DNA of 64,000 nucleotides from NCBI GenBank assembly GCA_902610845.1, contig CACLXJ010000001.1:35721-99720 (forward strand), written 5' to 3'. Positions 53,848-64,000 of the stretch are shown piece by piece. Below the pieces are notes generated by a model. It saw only the letters and a program-made list of their open reading frames with translations, was not told the origin of the DNA and did not search any database. This DNA comes from an uncultured Alphaproteobacteria bacterium (GTDB taxonomy: Bacteria; Pseudomonadota; Alphaproteobacteria; HIMB59; GCA-002718135). Position 1 is the first letter of the stretch; the number at the start of each line of letters is the position of its first letter. A program made the translations under genes and the position numbers.

Positions 53848-55147
53848 TAATATTATCTAATTTGCTTTGAACATCTTCGGTTATTTCGTCTTCTGGTTCA
53901 GCCAATTCTAGCGCTTGTTGCCAAAAATGAATTGCTTCTCTTTTTCTATTCATAGCATAATAAATATCACCAAGATGGTCTAGAGATATTGCTTCCCCAG
54001 GGGCAATATCTATTACCTTTTCCATTAATCTAGCTGCTTCTGTGAGATTATTTTTTTTAAAATGAGCCCAAGCTAAACTGTCTATGATATAAAAGCTATC
54101 TGGATTAGCTTTGTAAGCATCTTCTAACATTTTAAGAGAACGATCTAATTGTATTTCTCTTTCAACCCAGCCATAGGCAAGATAATTTAAAACGTTAGGT
54201 GTATCAGGCTTGATCTTCAGTGATTTTAAAAAATCTTTTTCGGCTAAATCCCAGTCCCCTCTTTGTTCATAACAAATACCTCTCATGTAATATATATTCC
54301 ACACATCATCGCGACTCTCTTCAATCATACTGTCATATATTGGTAATGCTAAATCATATTTTTTATTATAACGATAAAAATCACCAAGAATTTTTTTCAA
54401 TGCATAATTATTTTTCGTGTTTTCAACTATTGATAAAATTTTAGTCTCAGCATCTTCGTACGAACTATTATATAAGTAATTAATAGCTAAACTACTTTGT
54501 GCATCTATATAGAAAGGACTATCTTGCTTAATTTTTTCAAAAATATCTCTTGCCACTTGATATTGGCCCACTTGATCAAATAATTCAGCCTTAATAATAA
54601 TTGCCCGTTCATTGCTTGGATCTATTAATTGAGCTAGTGAAGTATAAAATAGTAAAAAATTATAATTTAAACGTCGTTGTTCATTATTAGAAAAGGATGA
54701 AGATACTATTTCAACTAATGACCGGCTAATTGTGATGTTATCTTTAAATCTATTATTGGTAAAAAAAATAAACTCAAGTAAATCATTTGGTTGCTCTAAA
54801 CCATCACGTAATTTTTTTATCTGATTATATTTTTTATCTAAATAGAGGGTTGAAATTTTAATAATATAAGCCTCTTGGTTATCAATATTATTTTCTAAAA
54901 TTCTATCAGCAATATCTGCTGCTAAATTAATATCTTCTGTAATTACAGCGGCAATTGCTTTATCCAAAAGTGCATCTTGTGATAACTTTATTTTATCTGC
55001 ATCAAGGTTAAATAATGTTGAAGAATAATCATAATTTTTATAGGCTGATTGTGAAATTAAAAAAGATGAACTGCTTATTGCTAAAACACTGGTATTGAAT
55101 AAAAAAATTAGACAAACAAAAAATAGTTTTTTAATAAAATTAATCAT
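53837..55147 (-). CDS. Periplasmic TPR-repeat protein
   Basis: 436 aa. Has a signal peptide and multiple TPR units in the C-terminal half ('YMRGICYEQRGDWDLAEKDFLKSLKIKPDTPNVLNYLAY'). Confidence 0.65.
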   Translation of the reverse strand: MINFIKKLFFVCLIFLFNTSVLAISSSSFLISQSAYKNYDYSSTLFNLDADKIKLSQDALLDKAIAAVITEDINLAADIADRILENNIDNQEAYIIKISTLYLDKKYNQIKKLRDGLEQPNDLLEFIFFTNNRFKDNITISRSLVEIVSSSFSNNEQRRLNYNFLLFYTSLAQLIDPSNERAIIIKAELFDQVGQYQVARDIFEKIKQDSPFYIDAQSSLAINYLYNSSYEDAETKILSIVENTKNNYALKKILGDFYRYNKKYDLALPIYDSMIEESRDDVWNIYYMRGICYEQRGDWDLAEKDFLKSLKIKPDTPNVLNYLAYGWVEREIQLDRSLKMLEDAYKANPDSFYIIDSLAWAHFKKNNLTEAARLMEKVIDIAPGEAISLDHLGDIYYAMNRKREAIHFWQQALELAEPEDEITEDVQSKLDNINAG

Positions 55148-55194
55148 TTCAAATATATTAGAGTTGCACTATGAATAGATAATTGTAATTTTGC

Positions 55195-55905
55195 ATGAAT
55201 CAATCAAATAAGAAAAATTTAGAATTCATAGTTAATTCTGGAGTAAACTATTTTCTTCAGGATTCTCCAAGAAACTGGTTTGAAAGTGAGAAAAAAGCGG
55301 AATTGCCTCATTCAAATATCGAAACTGATGATAAAAAATCACAAATCGAACTTATTATTAAAGACCTTAAAGTTCATCAATCATCTCTTCAGAAAACTGC
55401 AAAAAATTTAGTTGTTTATGATGGAAACTTAAATTCAAAAGTGATGTTAATTGGTGAAGCGCCAGGAAGAGATGAGGATGAACAAGGAATACCATTTGTT
55501 GGAAGAGCTGGACAACTTTTAAATAAGATGCTTTTAGCCATTAAACTCCAAAGAGGAGATGTCTACATTACCAATGTTGTAAATTGGCGACCTCCAGATA
55601 ATAGAACGCCTACTGATGATGAAATATTAGAATATTTACCTTTTTTACAAAGACAAATTGATATTGTTAAGCCTAAATTTATTTTTCTTCTAGGAGGTGT
55701 TGCGGCAAAAGCTATTTTATCAACTCCTCTAGCGCTTGGAAAACTTAGAGGTAGATGGCATGAATACAAATCACTTAACTTGGAAGAATCTATTCTTACA
55801 ATTGCATCTTATCATCCTGCGTTTTTACTTCGTTCTCCCCAATATAAAAAACAATCATGGGAAGATTTACAAATGTTACAAGAAAAATTAAAAAATGAAT
55901 CTTAA
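55195..55905 (+). CDS. Uracil-DNA glycosylase, family 4
   Basis: 236 aa. 'VMLIGEAPGRDEDEQGIPFVGRAGQLL' and 'HPAFLLR' are family-4 UDG motifs. Confidence 0.85.
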   Translation: MNQSNKKNLEFIVNSGVNYFLQDSPRNWFESEKKAELPHSNIETDDKKSQIELIIKDLKVHQSSLQKTAKNLVVYDGNLNSKVMLIGEAPGRDEDEQGIPFVGRAGQLLNKMLLAIKLQRGDVYITNVVNWRPPDNRTPTDDEILEYLPFLQRQIDIVKPKFIFLLGGVAAKAILSTPLALGKLRGRWHEYKSLNLEESILTIASYHPAFLLRSPQYKKQSWEDLQMLQEKLKNES

Positions 55906-57640
55906 AAAGTTTTTAATTTTTAATTTTTTTATTTTTTTAGTCATCTTTTCAAAACAGCTTTATGCATACCAACAAGATATTGTTTTAAAGTACGATAACA
56001 TATTTTCATCAAAAGTTTTGAGTGATGAAGATGTCTTCAATTATCAACAGGCGTACAAGTTTCAAGAAAAGTGTAAATGGAAAAGTGCAAATAATTTCAT
56101 TTTAAAAATAAAAAATAAATCACTACTCGGACATATTTATGCTCAAAAATTTTTACATCCAAATTGTTATAAATCAAAGTATTTGGAGTTATATTATTGG
56201 CTGAAAAAATATAATGACCTTCCACAAGCTAAACAAATATATAAATTGGCTATTCGAAGAATGCCGTCTGGTTATAAAAGTCCTTCAAAACCTACCACTC
56301 CGATTGGAATTGAAGCTGAACAAGTAAATAGTAAAAAATCAAGTACCTATAAAAGTACAAAAAAACTTTCAAGTAATGAAAGAGCAGAAAAAAGAAAACT
56401 AATTAATGCTATTAAATCAAGAGTTAATAAAGGCTGGCCAACAGGAGCTGTACAATTACTAAATCAGCGAGATGTTAATTTGCTTTTAGATCAAGTAGAA
56501 ATTGATGAGCAAAAAGAATTAATTGCCAAAGGGTACTTCTTAGCAAATAAAAATGATTTAGCTATCCAATATGCATCAGAGGCTCTTGTCAATTCAGCAA
56601 AATACGTTCCCTATGCTGCTTGGACAGCTGGTTTATCATCTTGGCGATTAGAAAAATTTAAAGATGCCGCAAAATATTTTTCTCTCTTCTCTATAAGTTT
56701 AAAAGATGATGCATGGCATCAAACTTCAGGTAGTTTTTGGACAGCTAGATCATATGCTAAACTTGGACAATATGATGATATTAATTTCTGGTTAAAAAGA
56801 GCTTCCAACAATCCTAATAGTTTTTATGGAATGCTTGCTTTAGAAATATTAGGTGTTGATGAAAAAATTGAATGGGTTGAACATACTAATCTTAATAATA
56901 ATAATAGTATGATTTTAAATATTCCAGCTGGAAAAAGAATACAGACACTTATTCAAGTTGGATTTGCAGATGAATTAGAAAAAGAAATTGTTCATATTAA
57001 TTCAATTCTTAATCGTGAAGTTGCAAAGGAATCCATACAGATTGCTGAAAATTTTGACTTAGCCTACACGCAGTTAAAAATTGTCAATAAGCTAGAACAG
57101 TTTGGCATGGATGTTCCAACCTATCTTTATTATCCAACAAGTGTTTGGAAACCCCGTGATGGTTATAAATTAGAAAAAGAATTACTACATGCCTTTATGC
57201 ATCAAGAATCCATGTTCAATATTACAGCAAAAAGTAAAGATGGTGCGATTGGGTTGATGCAGGTATTACCTTCAACAGCAAAGTTTATTACGTCTAGTAA
57301 AGATGTCAAAAGAAGTAACAGTAATATTCTTAAAAATCCTGAAATTAATTTAGAAGTTGGTCAGGAATATTTAACCTACCTTCTTGATCTTGAACAAGTA
57401 TCAAGAAATCTTATTTTTCTTGCAACAGCGTATAATGGTGGTCCAGGAAATTTACAAAAATGGAAGAATGAAACAAACTATATGGATGATTCATTATTTT
57501 TTATGGAAAGTATTCCTTCAAGAGAAACAAGGTGGTTTATTGAAAAGATTCTAACCAAATATTGGATTTACCAAAATAAAAATAATAAAGAAATGCGCTC
57601 TTTAAAAATGCTAGCAAATGGGAATGATCCACTTTATTAA
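55895..57640 (+). CDS. slt: Soluble lytic murein transglycosylase (Slt70-like)
   Basis: 581 aa. Has a signal peptide, a superhelical N-domain, and a C-terminal SLT domain with catalytic 'MHQESMFN' and 'AYNGGPGN'. Confidence 0.8.
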   Translation: MNLKKFLIFNFFIFLVIFSKQLYAYQQDIVLKYDNIFSSKVLSDEDVFNYQQAYKFQEKCKWKSANNFILKIKNKSLLGHIYAQKFLHPNCYKSKYLELYYWLKKYNDLPQAKQIYKLAIRRMPSGYKSPSKPTTPIGIEAEQVNSKKSSTYKSTKKLSSNERAEKRKLINAIKSRVNKGWPTGAVQLLNQRDVNLLLDQVEIDEQKELIAKGYFLANKNDLAIQYASEALVNSAKYVPYAAWTAGLSSWRLEKFKDAAKYFSLFSISLKDDAWHQTSGSFWTARSYAKLGQYDDINFWLKRASNNPNSFYGMLALEILGVDEKIEWVEHTNLNNNNSMILNIPAGKRIQTLIQVGFADELEKEIVHINSILNREVAKESIQIAENFDLAYTQLKIVNKLEQFGMDVPTYLYYPTSVWKPRDGYKLEKELLHAFMHQESMFNITAKSKDGAIGLMQVLPSTAKFITSSKDVKRSNSNILKNPEINLEVGQEYLTYLLDLEQVSRNLIFLATAYNGGPGNLQKWKNETNYMDDSLFFMESIPSRETRWFIEKILTKYWIYQNKNNKEMRSLKMLANGNDPLY

Positions 57641-57646
57641 TAGACT

Positions 57647-58174
57647 ATGCCTATTGATACTTCTCTAGAATTTGTTCCAATTAATATTGCTGTTATTACA
57701 ATCTCGGATTCGAGAACAAAAGAAAATGATACATCTGGAGACACTTTAGAAAAACGTATCATAGATGCAGGTCATCAAATGATTAAACGAACAATCATTC
57801 CTGATGATGTATCGAAAATAAAAGATACTTTAAATGCAATGTCGAGGGAAAAAGATATAGATTGTATCATAACAACTGGTGGTACAGGCTTAACAGGAAG
57901 AGATACCACCCCAGAAGCTGTGAAAGAAATTGCGAATAAACATATTGATGGATTTGGCGAGTTATTCAGACAAGTAAGTTTTGAAAAAATTGGTACATCA
58001 GCAATTCAATCACGAGCTGTTGCCGCATTAATAAATAGTACGTATGTTTTTTGCTTACCTGGGTCCACAGGGGCATGTAAAGATGGATGGGATGAAATAT
58101 TGCAATATCAATTAGATATTAGACATAAGCCCTGCAATTTTGTTGAAATCATGCCAAGACTAATTGAAAAATAG
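57647..58174 (+). CDS. moaB: Molybdenum cofactor biosynthesis protein B (MoaB/MogA family)
   Basis: 175 aa. 'IITTGGTGLTGRDTTPEA' is the MoCF_biosynth motif. Confidence 0.8.
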   Translation: MPIDTSLEFVPINIAVITISDSRTKENDTSGDTLEKRIIDAGHQMIKRTIIPDDVSKIKDTLNAMSREKDIDCIITTGGTGLTGRDTTPEAVKEIANKHIDGFGELFRQVSFEKIGTSAIQSRAVAALINSTYVFCLPGSTGACKDGWDEILQYQLDIRHKPCNFVEIMPRLIEK

Positions 58175-58788
58175 TGGCTGACTTTTCAATTGAAAAATCA
58201 ATTGATGGACCAGTTATTGGTTTAGACGAAGTAGGACGTGGACCATTAGCAGGACCAGTTGTTAGTTGTGGTTGTCATTATCTACATTATGATGATTTAG
58301 AATCAGAAATTCCCATAACTGATTCAAAAAAACATACACCAAAACAAAGAGAGAAATTATTTTTATTTTTTAAAAGATTACAAAAAGAGAATAAGCTTCA
58401 ATATAATTTGGGTTACGCAAGTGTAGAAGAAATAGATAAAATTAATATTTTGGAAGCAACAAAATTATCAATGAAAAGAGTGATAAATAAATTTAGTATT
58501 GATAATCCTAATCTTATTATTGATGGAAATTTTTCATTAAATTATAAAAATGAAAAATCAGTCATTGGAGGAGATAAAAAATCATTATCAATCGCAACTG
58601 CTTCTATTATAGCAAAAGTTCACCGCGATAGACTAATGAATATTCTTGATAATAAGTTTAATTATTATCATTGGAAAAGTAATGCTGGTTATGGAACAAA
58701 AAAACACATTGAAGCAATTCATAAACATGGAATAACTATCTTCCATCGTAAATCTTTTGAGCCTATTAAATCGTTATTAAATAAATAA
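58174..58788 (+). CDS. rnhB: Ribonuclease HII
   Basis: 204 aa. 'IGLDEVGRGPLAGPVV' is the catalytic DE motif, and 'DSKK' is also present. Its GTG start overlaps the moaB stop. Confidence 0.9.
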   Translation: MADFSIEKSIDGPVIGLDEVGRGPLAGPVVSCGCHYLHYDDLESEIPITDSKKHTPKQREKLFLFFKRLQKENKLQYNLGYASVEEIDKINILEATKLSMKRVINKFSIDNPNLIIDGNFSLNYKNEKSVIGGDKKSLSIATASIIAKVHRDRLMNILDNKFNYYHWKSNAGYGTKKHIEAIHKHGITIFHRKSFEPIKSLLNK

Positions 58789-58879
58789 TTTATTATTCTA
58801 GCCATGCAAGTAATGCATAACAATTATTATTTTATTATGCTTCAAAAAGATGCGACAAATATTATATGTTTATTATGTT

Positions 58880-58933
58880 TCATCATTCCTCCCATTTGAT
58901 GAGCTATTTTAGGGGTCTTCGGACCCCTTTTTT
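58880..58933 (+). ncRNA. Candidate small RNA 3' module: C-rich-loop hairpin plus intrinsic terminator
   Basis: Hairpin TCATCA-[TTCCTCCCATT]-TGATGA spans 58880-58902. It is followed by GGGGTC-TTCG-GACCCC plus T6 at 58912-58933. The module lies in a 249-nt spacer, the longest in the window. No transcript evidence is available. Confidence 0.3.
58912..58933 (+). terminator. Rho-independent terminator (UUCG tetraloop hairpin plus T6)
   Basis: 'GGGGTCTTCGGACCCC' is followed immediately by TTTTTT. Confidence 0.75.
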
Positions 58934-59037
58934 ATGTTTTAAGCCAATTCTTAAGGTTATCCCTACCTAAAGATTCTCTCTGTTGATAACTCAATTGACC
59001 TGATTATATATCTGCTTAAAGATTCCTTTTATCAATT

Positions 59038-60108
59038 ATGAAGAAAAATCAGATCATTTTAGGTGACTCGATCAAGGAAATGAAAAAAATAAAGGATCAT
59101 TCTGTTGATCTTATTTTTGCTGACCCACCCTACAACCTCCAATTAAAAGATACGCTATACAGGCCAGATCAAACAACAGTAGAAGCTGTTACACAGGATT
59201 GGGACAAGTTTAATACGTATAAAGAATATGATCAATTTACTAATGCTTGGCTTAGTGAATGTAAAAGAATATTAAAAAAAGGTGGCGCTCTTTGGGTCAT
59301 AGGAAGTTATCATAATATTTTACGTGTAGGTTCTACGATACAAGATGAAGGTCTGTGGATTTTAAATGATATTATATGGCATAAAACAAATCCTATGCCA
59401 AATTTTCGAGGGACGCGTTTTACAAATGCCCATGAAACTTTACTTTGGTGTACAACGTCACGTGATGCAAAATATACTTTTAATTATCAAAACTTAAAAG
59501 AGCTTAATGAAGGCAAACAAATGCGAAGTGATTGGTATATTCCTATTTGTTCTGGAAAAGAACGATTACGAGAAGACAATAATCAACGATCACATCCCAC
59601 ACAAAAACCGGAAGCATTACTGTATAGAATTCTTTTAGCATCAACTAATAAAGGTGATGTCGTTCTTGATCCATTTTCAGGAAGTGGAACAACAGCCGTT
59701 GTTGCTAAAAAATTACAACGAAATTTTATTAGTATTGAGAAAGATAAAGACTACGTAGAGCTGTCTAAAAAAAGATTAGGAGCAACAAAGGTCTTAAAAG
59801 AAGATGTAATTGAACTTACTAAAAGTAGACGTGATTTACCTAAAGTACCTTTTGGTGAATTAGTTGAACAAGGTATTATTCCACCGGGTGCTGTATTAAC
59901 AGATAAAAAAGAGCGCTTTAAAGCAACGGTCAGTATTGATGGTACATTAAAAATAAAAGATTTATCAGGCTCCATTCACCAAATGGGTGCAAAAATGCAA
60001 GGACTGCCTAGTTGTAATGGATGGGATTTTTGGCATGTAAAAGATAGATCAAAATCTATTCTTCTTGATGACATACGATCTGATTATAGAAACAAAAAAT
60101 TAAATTAA
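59038..60108 (+). CDS. ccrM: Cell-cycle-regulated N6-adenine DNA methyltransferase CcrM (GANTC-specific family)
   Basis: 356 aa. 'VDLIFADPPYNL', 'WVIGSYHNI', 'NPMPNFRGTRFTNAHETL' and 'HPTQKPEALL' are present. The CcrM-specific C-terminal domain 'LSGSIHQMGAKMQGLPSCNGWDFWH' is present too. The protein is collinear with Caulobacter CcrM as I recall it, and rnhB is adjacent. Confidence 0.88.
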   Translation: MKKNQIILGDSIKEMKKIKDHSVDLIFADPPYNLQLKDTLYRPDQTTVEAVTQDWDKFNTYKEYDQFTNAWLSECKRILKKGGALWVIGSYHNILRVGSTIQDEGLWILNDIIWHKTNPMPNFRGTRFTNAHETLLWCTTSRDAKYTFNYQNLKELNEGKQMRSDWYIPICSGKERLREDNNQRSHPTQKPEALLYRILLASTNKGDVVLDPFSGSGTTAVVAKKLQRNFISIEKDKDYVELSKKRLGATKVLKEDVIELTKSRRDLPKVPFGELVEQGIIPPGAVLTDKKERFKATVSIDGTLKIKDLSGSIHQMGAKMQGLPSCNGWDFWHVKDRSKSILLDDIRSDYRNKKLN

Positions 60109-60129
60109 TTTAGATAAACGGTAAAAAAA

Positions 60130-60148
60130 AAGGGGCTTAAAGCCCCTT
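60130..60148. terminator. Bidirectional hairpin terminator between ccrM and the exonuclease gene
   Basis: 'AAGGGGCTT-A-AAGCCCCTT' is flanked by A8 on the left. It separates convergent genes. Confidence 0.6.
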
Positions 60149-60151
60149 AAA

Positions 60152-61501
60152 TTAAATTGCTTTAAGAAATTGTTCGTACTGCGTGAGAGGGGTACTATCA
60201 ACCCCTGGATTTTTCTCTTTGAAAGTCTCAAAGTCGACAATTGCTTGATGAAGAGATCTAGGTTGATTATCATTAACGTGAAGTTTGTTATGAATATCTT
60301 TCTCTACTTGATTAATTACATTAGCACTCAACAAAGATCGATTTTCTTCAAAGATTAACCTATTTGCAAGCTCAGTAAATCGAGGATCCTCAAATTGAGA
60401 AGCTATTATAGCTCTCTCATTCCAATCAGAATTATGAAAAACTTTCATAAGATTTTGATCAAACTGTTCAGGAAAACCACCACTAAAGATCTTTTCTTCT
60501 ACTGTGGTGCCTTCAGGCCAATCTTTTTCAGTTAAATCTGCTGCTAATTGAAGAGCATCTTTAAAAGATTTGTTAGCTCTAATTTTCCTGGCTCTCTCGA
60601 ACAACACTTCTTCAGAAATATCATATTGGATAAATTTGATATAACTAAGGTCAAGTAGGATTGGCATTTTATTATTTTTGATAAAATAAAATGGCGATGA
60701 TTTTTTCCTTACAATTTTAGTTAACTCTTTCGCTGATAGATCTAAATAATCATCTGGATCAAATTTTAAGTCAAAGGTAAAATAACCAGATCCATACTTT
60801 AAACAATTTGTTAAAAGTAACTTTTGATCATAAAAAGGTGAATGACAAAAAACTAAATTTTGATTTATAAATTGTTCAATTCCTTTCTTAGATGTCATTT
60901 GCAAACAATTTTCAAAAAATTTTGGATCATTTTTTTTTATTTTATGTAATAATCCTACACATGCTAGCACATCGCTTTCTGCTTCATGAGCGTTCGTATG
61001 ATCTAATTGATTTGCTGAAGATAGACTTTCAAGTCGAAAATCAGGTTTACCTTTATCGTTCATATTAACTTTAATCGAAGTAGGACTAAATGTGTATGAA
61101 GATCGAGCTACATTAAGTGTATCAGCTTCTTGATTCCCCATGGTTTGGCAAATATAAACTGGCAACAAACATTGGTAAAATTGGCTTCTCAGAATTTCAC
61201 GATCAAATGTTAAAGAATTATGACCTACGATATAACTCGGAGTATGCTTCATTAAATAATTATGAATTTCTCTAGTCATTTCAAAATAAGACATATTAGA
61301 ATTCCTTAAATCAGTGATTTTTAGCTTGTTAGTCGCTAAAGCAAAAATGCTTGGAATCAATCCGGGTTTTAACCCGGTTTGAAGATTAATTTCGTCAATC
61401 AATGTAAAAGATTGATCATAAGTTTTAGCTGAAAATGTTAGAGCATAATCAAACCTTGTCTGCAGACCGGTTGTTTCGGTATCAAAAAAAGTAAATTTCA
61501 T
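60152..61501 (-). CDS. Exodeoxyribonuclease I (SbcB)-like DEDDh 3'-5' exonuclease
   Basis: 449 aa. 'FFDTETTGL' (Exo I motif), 'GHNSLTFD' (Exo II) and 'GKPDFRLESLSSANQLDHTNAHEAESDV' (Exo III, HxxxxD) are collinear with E. coli ExoI, as is the ExoI-like C-terminal region ('IKNNKMPILL', 'FSGGFPEQFDQ'). SD 'gaggagg' lies upstream. Confidence 0.8.
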   Translation of the reverse strand: MKFTFFDTETTGLQTRFDYALTFSAKTYDQSFTLIDEINLQTGLKPGLIPSIFALATNKLKITDLRNSNMSYFEMTREIHNYLMKHTPSYIVGHNSLTFDREILRSQFYQCLLPVYICQTMGNQEADTLNVARSSYTFSPTSIKVNMNDKGKPDFRLESLSSANQLDHTNAHEAESDVLACVGLLHKIKKNDPKFFENCLQMTSKKGIEQFINQNLVFCHSPFYDQKLLLTNCLKYGSGYFTFDLKFDPDDYLDLSAKELTKIVRKKSSPFYFIKNNKMPILLDLSYIKFIQYDISEEVLFERARKIRANKSFKDALQLAADLTEKDWPEGTTVEEKIFSGGFPEQFDQNLMKVFHNSDWNERAIIASQFEDPRFTELANRLIFEENRSLLSANVINQVEKDIHNKLHVNDNQPRSLHQAIVDFETFKEKNPGVDSTPLTQYEQFLKAI

Positions 61502-62190
61502 GCTGCCTCCTCAAACTTATTTGATCCAGAAATTAAGTTGTATCGTGGCAGAACGCCATTTTGAGATTTATATTTTTCCAGAAAATGATTTTCCCAATAT
61601 ACTCTCTTATCTTCAAAAGGTATGAAAGTATATTTTATACAATCAAATACCCAGCTCTTACGTTGGTCTTCTTTTGCACGATCATATATTGAAGCTCCTC
61701 GTCCATAGTACACAGTTTCTGAACCTTGAAGATATTGATAAATACCAGGTGCTTTAGGTAGGTCCTTAGGATCATGCTTAAAATGCTCAAACTGAGGTAC
61801 TATTGGAATTACAATCTCTTTAGTTTCTCGATTATAGCTAACTGGAATTCTTGCAAGTTCCCTTTTTCCTTCAGCTAATTTTCGTAAACAAGAAAATTGA
61901 CTTACTAATCTTTTACAAGATAGATACATAGGCCCAAAACCTTTTCGTCTACGATGATCAGATGAAAAAGCTAAATTTTCACAAGATGCTTCTTCATGAG
62001 AACCTTTTATGAAAAGTTGAGAAGACCAATTGTAATCTTGATGATCTCTTTTGCATGTTATAGTTTTAAAATTATGAAGACCGGCTAGCTGAGTAATGCT
62101 TGAATTGAAATAAATTCCATTTTTTCGTACACTAACTGAAGCAGCTTTAGGATCAAAATAAGTATCTAATCGACATATAAATTTATCCAT
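61498..62190 (-). CDS. Two-domain protein: unrecognised N-terminal domain plus C-terminal UvrC/Cho-like GIY-YIG nuclease domain
   Basis: 230 aa. 'PGIYQYLQGSETVYYGRGASIYDRAKE...YWENHFLEKYKSQNGVLPRYN' matches GIY-x9-Y(I/Y)G-x-A-x2-(L/I)-x2-R ... E-N-x-(L/F)-(I/L)-x2-Y...P-R-Y-N of the UvrC N-domain. A strong SD 'aaggaggt' lies 7 nt upstream, and the gene overlaps the exonuclease start (ATGA). Confidence 0.7.
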   Translation of the reverse strand: MDKFICRLDTYFDPKAASVSVRKNGIYFNSSITQLAGLHNFKTITCKRDHQDYNWSSQLFIKGSHEEASCENLAFSSDHRRRKGFGPMYLSCKRLVSQFSCLRKLAEGKRELARIPVSYNRETKEIVIPIVPQFEHFKHDPKDLPKAPGIYQYLQGSETVYYGRGASIYDRAKEDQRKSWVFDCIKYTFIPFEDKRVYWENHFLEKYKSQNGVLPRYNLISGSNKFEEAA

Positions 62191-62415
62191 TTAATTTACC
62201 TCCTTACTTTCATCATTTACTTTTTCAAAAAGTATAAATCTTTGATCTGGGTTATTAAAATTGAAAATAATTTCAAAATCTTCAATTGATATTGGTGAAA
62301 TATAAAAATTTTCATCTAAATTTTCTTCTATTTCTCTCACCATTTGTGTTTCGCCCATTTTATAAATTATTCTGGTTGAGCGAATTCCAGAAATTATTTT
62401 AACTTCATCAGTCAT
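62191..62415 (-). CDS. Small acidic protein (hypothetical, 74 aa), first gene of the nuclease operon
   Basis: SD 'aaggag' lies upstream. Its stop codon abuts the GIY-YIG start codon. The protein is rich in E and D, and I recognise no motif. Confidence 0.45.
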   Translation of the reverse strand: MTDEVKIISGIRSTRIIYKMGETQMVREIEENLDENFYISPISIEDFEIIFNFNNPDQRFILFEKVNDESKEVN

Positions 62416-62485
62416 TTTCTGACTCCTTTGTTAATTATTATTTTTTGTTAGACATCATTGTCATAAAAGCGTATTACCTTTAAAT

Positions 62486-62517
62486 ATGTAATGGTTAAAC
62501 ATTACATACCATTACAT
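62486..62517. promoter_or_regulatory. Operator-like inverted repeat in the divergent promoter region
   Basis: 'ATGTAATGG-N14-CCATTACAT' is a perfect 9-bp inverted repeat. A third 'CATTACAT' copy sits inside the spacer at 62500-62507. The site lies 10 nt upstream of the 485-aa ORF start. Confidence 0.4.
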
Positions 62518-62526
62518 TTTTAAACT

Positions 62527-63984
62527 ATGAGTGAGAGACTTTTTAAAACTAACTGGGTAAAATTTTCAGATTATGAGATTAGTTATGGGAGAATTAAGCC
62601 AAAAAAAGGATCAAAAATGATTCATTATGATCCAATAGCTGAAAGTGAAAAATTTAAAAAAAGCTCAAACACGGTTTATGACCAAATATATAAAATTAAA
62701 GAAAATAATCAGACAGATTTAAAAGAGTGGTTACGATTTGCAAAAAAATGGGGACTGCCTTGCACGCTTTTACACAACGTTGATGAAATAATTCTAGCTC
62801 CAAGATATCTCGCTTTTCAAAATAGCCAGATTTCTGAAACTGTCAGAGATCATTTAACAAACAAAATGGATAAGGTAAATTTTATTGTTCATAATTTTGA
62901 ATATGAAGTAACTAAATTAAATTCAAAAATTCAATGGGTAAGTGAGAAAAATAAAAAATTACTAAATAAATATAGAGTACAAAAAGTTAATTATTTTGAA
63001 TCTGATTTAAACCCTAATGATCCAACAGATTTAAACTGGCCTTATTCAAATGTAGTACATCTATGCCCACAACAACTTATATATAAGTATTTTAATGGAA
63101 AATGGGAAATTAGAACTAATTTTTTGACAGTTAAAAAACTAAATAAGAAAGCTAAACCAGGAGATATAATTGATAAAAAAAATGTAGTCGAGGGATACCT
63201 AACTCCAGGTTATTTTAAAATAACAGATTCAATAAATGAAGATAATGATGAAATTGAAACTCTAAGTGTAAGTATATCTTCGACAGGAAAAAGAAAATTT
63301 AATCCATTTTATTTAGGAAAACATTTTATCTCTAATTACAGAAATAAAAAAATTGAAACCGTCTATGATTATCCTCATGAGTTTACTAAATATTTTCCTG
63401 GTATGTTACAAGATGAGACATCAGAGGAAAAACATGCCAGAAATATTGAAGAGTTTTTTTGGCCATTTCCAGTTAGTGAAAAATTTCATAGAAATTATGC
63501 AGAAGAAGGCTACGAGCTTGGAGTGTTAGCCATAAACATTAAAATGTTTTTTATAAGACTAAAAGAAGCAAATAAACATATAAGATTGTTAAAAAATAAA
63601 AATGAAAAAAACTATCCAAATCGATATAATATAATTTATCGCGATTTGGAAAAATCGCTAATTAAATTTACATCAAGATTATTACTTACTTTTTCAAAAG
63701 ATAAAGACCGCAAATATAGTATATATTCACCTTCATTAATTGGTTATATAGGTCATATAATCCTCCAAGATATTACAAGTAAATATTCTCCAAGATTTTG
63801 TATAGAATGTGAAAGACTGATTTCTAACCCTGCAAAACCTGATAGCCCATATTGTGATGATTCAACATGTGGCAACAGACATAGAGTAAGGAGAACAAGA
63901 AAAAAAGCAAAGCTCAAAAAATTGTTAGATAAAAAAGAGATATCTAAAAAAGTTTATATTAATAAACTTAGAGAAATAGATTAA
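62527..63984 (+). CDS. Large orphan protein with C-terminal CGNR-type zinc finger and basic tail
   Basis: 485 aa. The C-terminus 'CIECERLISNPAKPDSPYCDDSTCGNRHRVRRTRKKAK' fits the C-x2-C...C-x4-CGNR-x-(R/K)-rich pattern of zf-CGNR. I recognise no family for the first ~430 aa, and no obvious SD is present. Confidence 0.55.
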   Translation: MSERLFKTNWVKFSDYEISYGRIKPKKGSKMIHYDPIAESEKFKKSSNTVYDQIYKIKENNQTDLKEWLRFAKKWGLPCTLLHNVDEIILAPRYLAFQNSQISETVRDHLTNKMDKVNFIVHNFEYEVTKLNSKIQWVSEKNKKLLNKYRVQKVNYFESDLNPNDPTDLNWPYSNVVHLCPQQLIYKYFNGKWEIRTNFLTVKKLNKKAKPGDIIDKKNVVEGYLTPGYFKITDSINEDNDEIETLSVSISSTGKRKFNPFYLGKHFISNYRNKKIETVYDYPHEFTKYFPGMLQDETSEEKHARNIEEFFWPFPVSEKFHRNYAEEGYELGVLAINIKMFFIRLKEANKHIRLLKNKNEKNYPNRYNIIYRDLEKSLIKFTSRLLLTFSKDKDRKYSIYSPSLIGYIGHIILQDITSKYSPRFCIECERLISNPAKPDSPYCDDSTCGNRHRVRRTRKKAKLKKLLDKKEISKKVYINKLREID

Positions 63985-64000
63985 ATGTAATAGATTTATT

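What the first reader, a model, noticed from the sequence alone, without database searches (positions are those of the whole stretch)
62527..63984. 485-aa orphan protein ending in a CGNR-type zinc finger
The last ~40 aa (C-I-E-C ... Y-C-D-D-S-T-C-G-N-R-H-R-V-R-R-T-R-K-K) fit the zf-CGNR pattern. As I recall it, that finger normally terminates ~200-aa ABATE-domain putative regulators. Here it caps a ~430-aa region with no motif I can name, no obvious SD, and an extremely Lys/Asn-rich composition. The gene's position, divergent from the nuclease operon, suggests a regulator or sensor role. The motif 'ATGTAAT' recurs just after its stop at 63985-63991, right at the window edge.
Basis: partly seen in the sequence, partly recalled or inferred. 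Interest (0 to 1): 0.6.

Follow-up and report, generated by a model that had tools for sequence, protein, structure and literature searches.

The report
Zinc-finger regulator of a nuclease cassette
The 485-aa gene is real and belongs to a rare, uncharacterised protein family found beside integrases in mobile DNA islands, and its zinc finger most likely binds a three-part DNA site in front of its own gene to control the neighbouring nuclease genes.

Summary
The ORF 62527-63984 (+) is real. It ends in a four-cysteine finger with a C-G-N-R helix start, but the Pfam zf-CGNR match is below threshold (20.5 vs 24 bits) and there is no ABATE domain. It is not an orphan: exhaustive HMMER finds 35 cluster representatives. 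Marine AT-rich relatives (28-91% identity) always sit in the same four-gene cassette, made of an ExoI-like exonuclease, a GIY-YIG nuclease and a 65-81-aa protein, divergent from the large protein. The cassette is found at four different chromosomal sites. Distant GC-rich relatives sit between a divergent small HTH gene with replication genes on one side and a tyrosine integrase plus tRNA on the other. That is the slot of an element's master repressor.

The key result concerns the DNA site before the gene. Every locus whose finger helix starts CGN(R/A) carries TGTAATG(G)-N-(C)ATTACA-N3-CCATTACA 10-35 nt before the start codon. Loci with other helices lack it, and many carry a site of the same architecture built on AGACA half-sites. 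The divergent neighbour changes between loci, so the family protein is the only constant partner of the site.

Best reading: a new family of zinc-finger, operator-binding regulators, here controlling a nuclease operon. The sign of regulation, the signal and the cassette's role (defence or mobility) are inferred only.

The parts
62527..63984 (+). Gene for the 485-aa family protein (large N-terminal region of unknown fold plus C-terminal zinc finger)
   Evidence: ORF. Homologues at 91%, 48%, 46% and 35% identity with the same start. AF2 model with pLDDT 80.7 and pTM 0.79. No Foldseek match in PDB or BFVD.
63799..63930 (+). Cys4 treble-clef-like finger and basic helix (residues 425-468: C-I-E-C ... 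Y-C-D-D-S-T-C-G-N-R-H-R-V-R-R-T-R-K-K)
   Evidence: zf-CGNR at 20.5 bits, below the cut-off of 24. Cys columns are invariant or nearly so. Cys443/448 sit at the start of helix 448-468 in the model, as described for Jann_2411. Profile hit to 3H0N at E=0.0045.
62486..62517 (.). Predicted tripartite operator: ATGTAATGG (62486-62494), ACATTACAT (62499-62507, reverse orientation) and CCATTACAT (62509-62517, reverse orientation). It ends 10 nt before the ATG.
   Evidence: Unique in the window. Conserved in L001, L002, L003 and L004 and in the distant loci L019 and L065. Its presence tracks the CGN(R/A) finger helix.
62448..62477 (+). Putative promoter of the 485-aa gene (-35 TTAGAC 62448-62453, 18-nt spacer, -10 TATTAC 62472-62477). 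Inferred by eye.
   Evidence: Read from the sequence. TTGACA with a 17-nt spacer is conserved at the same place in L001 and L003. It was not reported by the consensus scan, so it is weak.
62437..62464 (-). Promoter-like site for the divergent nuclease operon (-35 ATGACA, -10 AATAAT). Its -35 lies inside the palindrome GACATCATTGTC (62451-62462), which also overlaps the + strand -35.
   Evidence: Consensus scan, 10 of 12 matches. The palindrome GACAnnnnTGTC is conserved in L001 and L003.
62191..62415 (-). First gene of the divergent operon: a 74-aa protein with no known domain
   Evidence: ORF. Homologues lie at the same position in every marine locus. No Pfam, PHROG or PADLOC hit. Not related to the HTH_17 neighbours of distant family members (hhalign).
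61498..62190 (-). 230-aa protein with a C-terminal GIY-YIG nuclease domain and an unknown N-terminal ~130 aa
   Evidence: GIY...YYG...R...E...N motifs are visible in the alignment. Homologues from L004, L011 and L012 pass the Pfam GIY-YIG cut-off (23.3, 23.0 and 22.9 bits against 22.6). The window copy gives only a weak match to the UvrC N-terminus.
60152..61501 (-). 449-aa DEDDh exonuclease of the ExoI/SbcB type. Its start overlaps the stop of the GIY-YIG gene.
   Evidence: RNase_T plus Exonuc_X-T_C. PADLOC RTasSbcB at 4.2e-66 over the full length. NCBIfam ExoI at 148 bits, below the cut-off of 260. phrog_19080 at 2.5e-51.

Best explanation
The 485-aa protein belongs to an undescribed family of sequence-specific nucleic-acid-binding regulators. 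A C-terminal Cys4 (CGNR-like, treble-clef-type) zinc finger with a basic helix recognises a tripartite site: one inverted half-site plus two direct half-sites about one helical turn apart. The site lies between the protein's own promoter and start codon, inside a divergent promoter region. From there the protein most likely autoregulates and controls the divergently transcribed operon.

In distant relatives that operon holds the excision and replication genes of tRNA-integrated islands, so the family sits where a CI/Stl/ImmR-type master repressor sits. In this window and its marine relatives the controlled operon encodes a small protein, a GIY-YIG nuclease and an ExoI-like exonuclease. The large conserved N-terminal region has almost no conserved charged residues and so is probably not an enzyme. 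It is inferred to be the oligomerisation or signal-sensing part.

Shown here: the gene, the family, the synteny, and the covariation of finger and site. Inferred: zinc binding, binding to DNA rather than RNA, repression rather than activation, the signal, and the biological role of the nuclease operon.
For: 1. Finger. The four Cys are conserved across 31 aligned members. An aromatic residue precedes Cys3, and a basic helix follows. There is a marginal zf-CGNR hit and a 3H0N profile hit. The geometry in the model matches the published description.

2. Site. GTAATGG-N14-CCATTAC is unique in the window. It is conserved at 48%, 46% and 35% protein identity.

3. Covariation.
- 7 of 7 loci with a CGN(R/A) helix carry the TGTAATG/CATTAC site. 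These include L019 and L065, whose proteins are ~20% identical overall but share the helix CGNRHRVR.
- 0 of ~40 loci with other helices carry it.
- The 'CR.T.QKRR' group instead has TGTC-N-GACA-N-GACA in 7 of 27 loci against 0.26 expected. AGACAT occurs in 13 of 27 against 2.3 expected.
- The marine basal members P0006 and P0008 lack both CGN and the site.
- In a tree built without the finger, the two CGN clades are not sisters.

4. Neighbours. The divergent neighbour differs between loci: the marine 74-aa type, an RHH-like protein, HTH_17, XRE, or none. The family protein is the only constant partner of the site.

5. Position. The order family gene, tyrosine integrase, tRNA is seen in L021, L038, L044, L049, L050 and L060. 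A tRNA follows directly in L056, L057 and L003. Upstream lie HTH_17/AlpA-like genes and Rep, Prim-Pol, AAA_25 or DUF3987 genes.

6. No catalytic signature. The conserved residues are W, Y, P, G, F, L and C plus one Glu.
Against: - No experiment supports binding. The finger's similarity to zf-CGNR is below Pfam's threshold, and Foldseek finds no structural neighbour for the whole protein or for the C-terminal domain.
- The site would be transcribed if the inferred promoter is right, and it can form an RNA hairpin (window: -14.1 kcal/mol, z = -4.4). RNA binding is therefore not excluded.
- With respect to the nuclease-operon promoter the site lies upstream of the -35. That position fits activation as well as repression.
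- The covariation rests on about five independent lineages. Joint inheritance of the finger and the site as one module is an alternative to functional coupling, though it still implies linkage.
- No integrase was seen in the marine cassettes, so the analogy to an island repressor is by homology only.
Confidence: 0.6

Rival explanations
1. The four genes form an anti-phage defence system. The 485-aa protein is primarily the sensor or adaptor: it recognises foreign DNA or a phage protein and licenses the GIY-YIG and ExoI-like nucleases. Binding to its own promoter is secondary or absent.
For: The four-gene cassette is strictly conserved at 28-91% identity and inserted at four different chromosomal sites. 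The exonuclease is closest to a defence-associated PADLOC model (RTasSbcB, 4.2e-66). Distant family members sit in islands next to BrxL (L016) or next to a SIR2_2 protein and a MazG-like protein (L065).
Against: The 485-aa, 230-aa and 74-aa proteins give no PADLOC hit. No phage challenge data exist. The finger/site covariation points to a specific site at the protein's own gene rather than to foreign DNA. This rival is compatible with the best explanation if the regulator is also the sensor.
Confidence: 0.2
2. The protein is an RNA-binding translational autoregulator. The finger binds the hairpin formed by the repeat in the 5' UTR of its own mRNA.
For: The site lies between the inferred -10 and the ATG. 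It folds into a hairpin with z = -4.4 in the window. The family consensus YCS..C resembles FCS fingers (2L8E, E = 0.5). From my own knowledge, not checked here, FCS fingers can bind RNA. The two arms change together between the TTACA and AGACA groups.
Against: - The hairpins in the other loci are weak: z = -0.2 to -2.6 in the seven other loci folded (L001, L003, L004, L019, L065, L023, L029).
- Arm mismatches are not compensated (L003 G/G, L065 C/A).
- A hairpin does not explain the third, directly repeated half-site with 10-11-nt spacing.
- The left arm can pair with either right-hand copy (L004).
Confidence: 0.1
3. The protein is a replication-origin or iteron-binding initiator, or an accessory factor for integration and excision, and not a transcription regulator.
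For: Repeated half-sites one helical turn apart resemble iterons. The gene lies directly upstream of, and co-oriented with, the integrase in many distant loci.
Against: The distant islands already encode separate Rep, Prim-Pol or helicase proteins. The marine cassettes have neither an integrase nor replication genes within the contigs seen. The site is 1-2.5 kb from the tRNA/att end, too far to be an integrase arm site. It sits in a promoter region.
Confidence: 0.07

Closest known systems
ABATE + zf-CGNR proteins (Jann_2411, PDB 3H0N; Pfam PF07336 + PF11706)
   Same: Both have a C-terminal Cys4 finger with two Cys in a knuckle, an aromatic residue before Cys3, Cys3 and Cys4 at the start of a helix, C-G-N-R in the window protein, and a basic tail. 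3H0N is the best PDB sequence hit of the family profile (E = 0.0045). Both are proposed to be signal-dependent DNA-binding regulators.
   Different: - No ABATE domain by Pfam or by Foldseek on the C-terminal model.
- The knuckle is C-x2-C here, against C-x4-C in Jann_2411.
- The Pfam score is below the cut-off.
- GNR is not conserved across the family.
- A ~430-aa unrelated N-terminal region replaces ~140 aa.
- The context is a mobile island.
Master repressors of integrative elements and temperate phages (lambda CI, SaPI Stl, ICEBs1 ImmR). Comparison from general knowledge.
   Same: The gene position in distant relatives is the same: next to and co-oriented with the integrase at the att/tRNA end, and divergent from a small Xis/AlpA/Cro-like gene followed by replication genes. 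A repeated operator lies in the divergent region.
   Different: A zinc finger replaces the HTH. There is no sequence or fold similarity. The window cassette shows no integrase, and its controlled operon encodes nucleases. Repression has not been tested.
Pfam DUF6076 (PF19553)
   Same: 5 of 31 family members match it weakly over the 'PSL...M.LQD' segment plus the first half of the finger (best 26.6 bits against a cut-off of 23.5).
   Different: The matches cover only ~55-60 of 168 model positions. The window protein does not match. The family has no literature.
SbcB-like exonucleases associated with defence reverse transcriptases (PADLOC model RTasSbcB). This concerns the neighbouring gene.
   Same: The window exonuclease matches this model over its full length at 4.2e-66. 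That is stronger than its match to housekeeping ExoI (148 bits against a cut-off of 260).
   Different: There is no reverse transcriptase in the cassette or in any marine locus whose flanks are visible. In the published DRT10 work the relevant SbcB is the host's enzyme.

Membership tests
zf-CGNR (Pfam PF11706) | Score at or above Pfam's gathering cut-off | tested here: not met
   20.5 bits against a cut-off of 24, covering model positions 24-43 of 44 only. 8 of 31 family members match at E<0.01, none above the cut-off in the tables shown.
zf-CGNR (Pfam PF11706) | Four zinc-ligand Cys: two in a knuckle, two at the N-terminus of the following helix | tested here: met
   C425, C428 and C443 are invariant and C448 is present in >=90% of 31 sequences. 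Helix 448-468 begins at Cys448 in the AF2 model. The arrangement is as described for Jann_2411, although the knuckle spacing is x2 rather than x4.
zf-CGNR (Pfam PF11706) | C-G-N-R motif at the helix start (Arg175 strictly conserved in the ABATE family) and an aromatic residue before Cys3 | tested here: inconclusive
   The window has Y442-C...C448-G-N-R451. P0002 and L003 have CGNA, and most distant members have CR(N/W/H).T. The aromatic residue before Cys3 is conserved (Y/W/F; H or N in a few members).
ABATE-domain regulators (Pfam PF07336, fold of 3H0N) | [quoted passage not shown] | tested here: not met
Mobile-element master repressor (functional class, CI/Stl/ImmR-like) | Gene adjacent to the integrase or att end and divergent from the excision/replication module | tested here: inconclusive
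   Met in distant relatives. In the window and the marine loci no integrase is visible. L003 has a tRNA-Met directly downstream. The window ends 16 nt after the stop.
Mobile-element master repressor (functional class, CI/Stl/ImmR-like) | Binds operators in the divergent promoter region and represses the divergent operon | not testable with these tools
   Only indirect support: a conserved tripartite site that covaries with the finger helix.
Known anti-phage defence systems (PADLOC-DB v2.0.0) | Component proteins match the models of a described system | tested here: not met
   Only the exonuclease matches (RTasSbcB, DEDDh). The 485-aa, 230-aa and 74-aa proteins have no hit, and no RT is present.
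GIY-YIG nucleases (Pfam PF01541), for the 230-aa neighbour | GIY-YIG catalytic domain above the Pfam cut-off | tested here: inconclusive
   The window copy has no Pfam hit. Its homologues in L004, L011 and L012 score 23.3, 23.0 and 22.9 bits against a cut-off of 22.6. The GIY, YYG, R, E and N motifs align in the window copy.

The most novel reading that the evidence does not exclude
The four-gene cassette is a new, compact mobile module of streamlined marine bacteria that lacks an integrase. Its large zinc-finger protein would be both repressor and sensor. On detecting an invader or DNA damage it would release its operator and unleash a GIY-YIG endonuclease plus an ExoI-like exonuclease, acting either as a defence system or as a homing device. 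On this reading the family as a whole defines a previously unrecognised, non-HTH class of master switch for tRNA-integrated islands, with a readable finger-to-half-site code (CGNRHR to TTACA, CR.T.QK to AGACA).
Probability: 0.25. Interest if true: 0.75.

Novelty: new variant of a known kind. Interest (0 to 1): 0.55.

Why it matters
If correct, this names a function and a DNA target for a protein family that has no annotation, no solved structure and no literature. It also adds a zinc-finger type to the HTH-dominated set of switches that control integrative islands. The predicted correspondence between finger helix and half-site can be tested directly by swapping either one. The nuclease cassette is one of the few candidate defence or mobility modules seen in very streamlined AT-rich marine genomes, where such systems are poorly known. 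That last point is my own background assessment, not a tool result.

Tried and rejected
- DRT or reverse-transcriptase system. This was suggested by the PADLOC RTasSbcB hit. No RT is present in any locus, including those with both flanks visible, and the literature describes host SbcB acting on DRT10.
- ABATE fold. No Pfam or Foldseek support.
- The 74-aa protein as a diverged HTH_17/AlpA. hhalign probability 0.1%.
- ncRNA or tRNA next to the gene. Rfam and ARAGORN found nothing in window 55000-64000 or in L001 and L002. Only L003 has a tRNA-Met.
- Phage or plasmid origin. tblastn gave no match in GenBank phages or PLSDB plasmids for the window protein, P0017, P0020 or P0012. IMG/VR holds no relatives of the window's three proteins and one distant family member, L066, in a contig with ParB-methylases and a sigma factor.
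- The repeat as integrase arm sites. It lies too far from the att/tRNA end.
- ATGTAAT after the stop as a functional copy. Its frequency is at chance level and it is not conserved.
- The palindrome GACAnnnnTGTC as an operator. It may simply be two overlapping divergent -35 boxes. Left open.
Full report
**1. The observation**

The ORF is as described. It starts at ATG 62527 and stops at 63982-63984, giving 485 aa. The C-terminus reads C425-I-E-C428 ... Y442-C443-D-D-S-T-C448-G-N-R-H-R-V-R-R-T-R-K-K.

Pfam gives only a sub-threshold zf-CGNR match: 20.5 bits against a cut-off of 24, residues 441-460, model positions 24-43 of 44. PHROGs, PADLOC and NCBIfam give nothing. Lys is 13.2% and Asn 7.8%. 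That is normal for DNA of 26-33% GC.

The upstream repeat 62486-62517 is real and unique in the window: GTAATGG-N14-CCATTAC gives 1 match against 0 expected. The ATGTAAT after the stop exists but is at chance frequency (24 against 21.4 expected). It reads ATTTAAT in the 91%-identical locus L002.

**2. Not an orphan**

- The word-indexed search finds P0001 (91% identity) and P0002 (48%).
- The exhaustive HMMER search finds 35 representatives at E<=1e-3, of 340-545 aa, matching both the N-terminal ~100 aa and the C-terminal ~160 aa.
- A 31-sequence alignment shows the conserved blocks W..F..YE...G.I.P..G..L..YDP, GLLG, FFP....YP.P.SE.FW..YAEP, and PSL......M.LQD. These are followed by C-x2-C-x13-15-(Y/W)C-x2-4-C and a basic helix.
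- The invariant or nearly invariant residues are W, Y, P, G, F, L, S and C plus one Glu. This does not look like a catalytic signature.
- Five members touch Pfam DUF6076, but only over the PSL..LQD-plus-finger segment. DUF6076 has no literature.

**3. Structure**

AlphaFold2 with this alignment gives a confident model (pLDDT 80.7, pTM 0.79). Its parts are:
- an alpha/beta N-terminal domain (residues 1-100);
- a low-confidence insertion at ~100-175. In the 31-sequence alignment most of the GC-rich members are gapped there, so it looks specific to the marine clade;
- a beta region (176-281);
- a helical hairpin (300-382);
- a beta-hairpin (386-400) and a helix (404-416);
- the Cys knuckle, then a long helix starting at Cys448.

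By sequence, the family profile's best PDB hit is 3H0N (Jann_2411, ABATE + zf-CGNR), with E = 0.0045 for A1 and 0.023 for A4. Almost all of the confident alignment lies in the finger. The published description of that finger matches the arrangement here: two knuckle Cys, two Cys at the helix N-terminus, an aromatic residue before Cys3, a conserved Arg of CGNR and basic residues. The exceptions are the x2 knuckle spacing and the family-wide loss of G-N-R.

Verdict: a CGNR-like treble-clef-type finger is plausible. The protein is not an ABATE protein.

**4. Context of close (marine, AT-rich) relatives**

Every locus recovered has the same cassette. An ExoI-like exonuclease (~445-450 aa), a ~230-264-aa protein and a 65-81-aa protein lie on one strand. 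The ~500-aa family protein is transcribed divergently. The loci are:
- the window;
- L001;
- L003;
- L004-L009 for P0005 at 35% identity;
- L011 for P0008;
- L012-L014 for P0006.

The middle protein carries GIY...YYG...R...E...N motifs. Three of its homologues pass the Pfam GIY-YIG cut-off. The exonuclease keeps the DEDDh motifs (sequence). It matches RNase_T plus the ExoI C-terminal domain. Its strongest match is the PADLOC model RTasSbcB (4.2e-66).

The cassette lies at different chromosomal sites:
- after a CcrM-like methylase in the window;
- next to tRNA-Met and suf-like genes in L003. The tRNA is from ARAGORN and Rfam. The suf assignment is my reading of the ORF translations and was not scanned against a family library;
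- abutting dapB in L005;
- near a 2-hydroxyacid dehydrogenase, with three extra small genes, in L012.

No reverse transcriptase or integrase is present where the flanks are visible.

**5. Context of distant (GC-rich) relatives**

Look-ups and a metagenome scan gave 44 further loci.

- The gene immediately downstream and co-oriented is often a ~380-aa tyrosine integrase followed within ~100 nt by a tRNA. This is seen in L021, L038, L044, L049, L050 and L060. L015 has the integrase. L056 and L057 have the tRNA directly.
- The immediately upstream neighbour is a small HTH protein. HTH_17/AlpA-like occurs in 9 of 31 loci, and XRE, HTH_36 and others also occur. In L019 and L065 I read it as RHH-like by eye.
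- Further upstream lie Rep_1, AAA_25, DUF3854, DUF3987, Prim-Pol, DUF3631 and serine recombinases.
- Some islands carry likely defence cargo: BrxL in L016, and SIR2_2 and MazG-like genes in L065.

This is the layout of small tRNA-integrating islands, with the family protein in the slot of the master repressor. That last comparison comes from general knowledge.

**6. The decisive evidence: the finger helix and the upstream site covary**

In the window the site is ATGTAATGG-ttaa-ACATTACAT-a-CCATTACAT, ending 10 nt before the ATG. The same arrangement of one left arm and two reverse-oriented right copies ~10 nt apart is present in L002, L003 and L004. L001 keeps the outer inverted arms but its internal copy is degenerate.

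Two GC-rich proteins that are only ~20% identical overall (P0012 and P0023) have almost the same finger helix, CGNRHRVR(R/K)H. Their loci carry GTGTAATG-N9-CATTAA-tc-CATTACAT and GTGTAACG-N8-GTTACA-aata-CATTACA 30-40 nt before the ATG. P0023 was looked up as a prediction after the site had been seen in L019, and the prediction held.

Across all loci, 7 of 7 with a CGN(R/A) helix have the site, and 0 of ~40 with other helices do. The marine basal members P0006 and P0008 lack both.

The 'CR.T.QKRR' group has a site of the same architecture but with a different half-site:
- TGTCTT-N10-12-(A/T)(A/G)GACAT-N4-(A/T)(A/G)GACA;
- tripartite pattern in 7 of 27 loci against 0.26 expected;
- AGACAT in 13 of 27 against 2.3 expected.

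A neighbour-joining tree built without the finger columns puts the two CGN clades apart. The small divergent neighbour differs among loci that share a site, and is similar among marine loci that do not. L011 and L012 are closer to the window's 74-aa protein than L004 is. The family protein is therefore the only constant partner of the site.

**7. Mechanism**

I infer that the protein binds this site through the finger helix, probably as an oligomer given one inverted and two direct half-sites a helical turn apart.

In the window, a weak + strand promoter read by eye (TTAGAC-18-TATTAC, 62448-62477) would start transcription at about the left arm. A bound protein would then block its own expression. 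The - strand promoter for the nuclease operon (ATGACA-16-AATAAT) has its -35 box 22 nt from the site, and the two -35 boxes overlap a palindrome (62451-62462). Whether the operon is repressed, activated or switched by promoter competition cannot be decided here.

The site can also fold as an RNA hairpin in the 5' UTR (window z = -4.4, weaker elsewhere). Uncompensated arm mismatches and the third half-site argue for DNA, but RNA binding remains a rival.

**8. What the cassette does**

This is unknown. The options are:
- a regulated defence nuclease pair;
- a recombination or homing module of a mobile cassette;
- a remnant of a larger island.

Supporting mobility or defence: there are four insertion sites, a tRNA flank in L003, a defence-associated exonuclease clade, and defence cargo in related islands. 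Against: there are no PADLOC hits for three of the four proteins and no relatives in phage, plasmid or (for the marine type) IMG/VR collections.

**9. Novelty and verdict**

The finding is real and more interesting than 'orphan with a finger'. It is an uncharacterised, structurally unmatched family with a predicted DNA target and a predicted role as the switch of integrative islands. Here it is attached to a nuclease operon in an AT-rich marine genome.

It is a new variant of a known kind: a mobile-element transcription regulator with a treble-clef zinc finger. It is not a new principle. Confidence that it is a site-specific nucleic-acid-binding regulator is about 0.6. Interest is 0.55.

Noticed in passing
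window 59038-60108 (+): A 356-aa N6/N4 DNA methylase with a C-terminal RAMA domain (CcrM-like). It ends 44 nt from the convergent stop of the cassette's exonuclease. RNase HII (58174-58788) and a MoaB-like gene (57647-58174) lie upstream.
   Followed up: partly
window 62451-62462: The palindrome GACATCATTGTC overlaps the -35 boxes of both divergent promoters. GACATTATTGTC is conserved in L001 and L003, and GACTTCCAGTC occurs in L012. It could be a second operator for the small protein, or simply two back-to-back TTGACA boxes.
   Followed up: partly
L003 571-2067: The homologue in the 'uncultured Gammaproteobacteria' MAG is split into 258-aa and 183-aa ORFs, by a frameshift or an assembly error. 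It is followed directly by tRNA-Met (2168-2244, -) and then by genes I read as suf-like from their translations.
   Followed up: partly
L065 5235-10227; L016 1-1961: Islands that carry distant family members also carry likely defence cargo. L065 has a MazG-like gene and a 1175-aa SIR2_2 protein. L016 has a BrxL-kinase fusion nearby and a ParB-methylase divergent from the family gene.
   Followed up: no
L001 2166-2472 and L002 1672-1765: The DNA downstream of the family gene is noticeably richer in G+C than the gene and has no long ORF in L001. No tRNA or Rfam family was found. In L002 it may be the 3' end of a convergent gene.
   Followed up: partly
L012 1152-2303 (also L013): This cassette variant has three extra small genes (90, 94 and 164 aa) beyond the exonuclease, with no Pfam match. 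L004 has a 78-aa gene at the same position.
   Followed up: no
window 61498-61501 and 62190-62191: The three genes of the minus-strand operon are tightly packed. The exonuclease start overlaps the GIY-YIG stop by 4 nt, and the GIY-YIG start abuts the stop of the 74-aa gene. This suggests translational coupling.
   Followed up: no
L066 (IMG/VR UViG, 14.6 kb): This is the only viral-collection hit for the family. It has the same gene order as L035 (440, 216 and 153 aa divergent), with a sigma-70 region-2 protein and two ParB-methylases. None of the ten ORFs scanned matched a phage structural family.
   Followed up: partly
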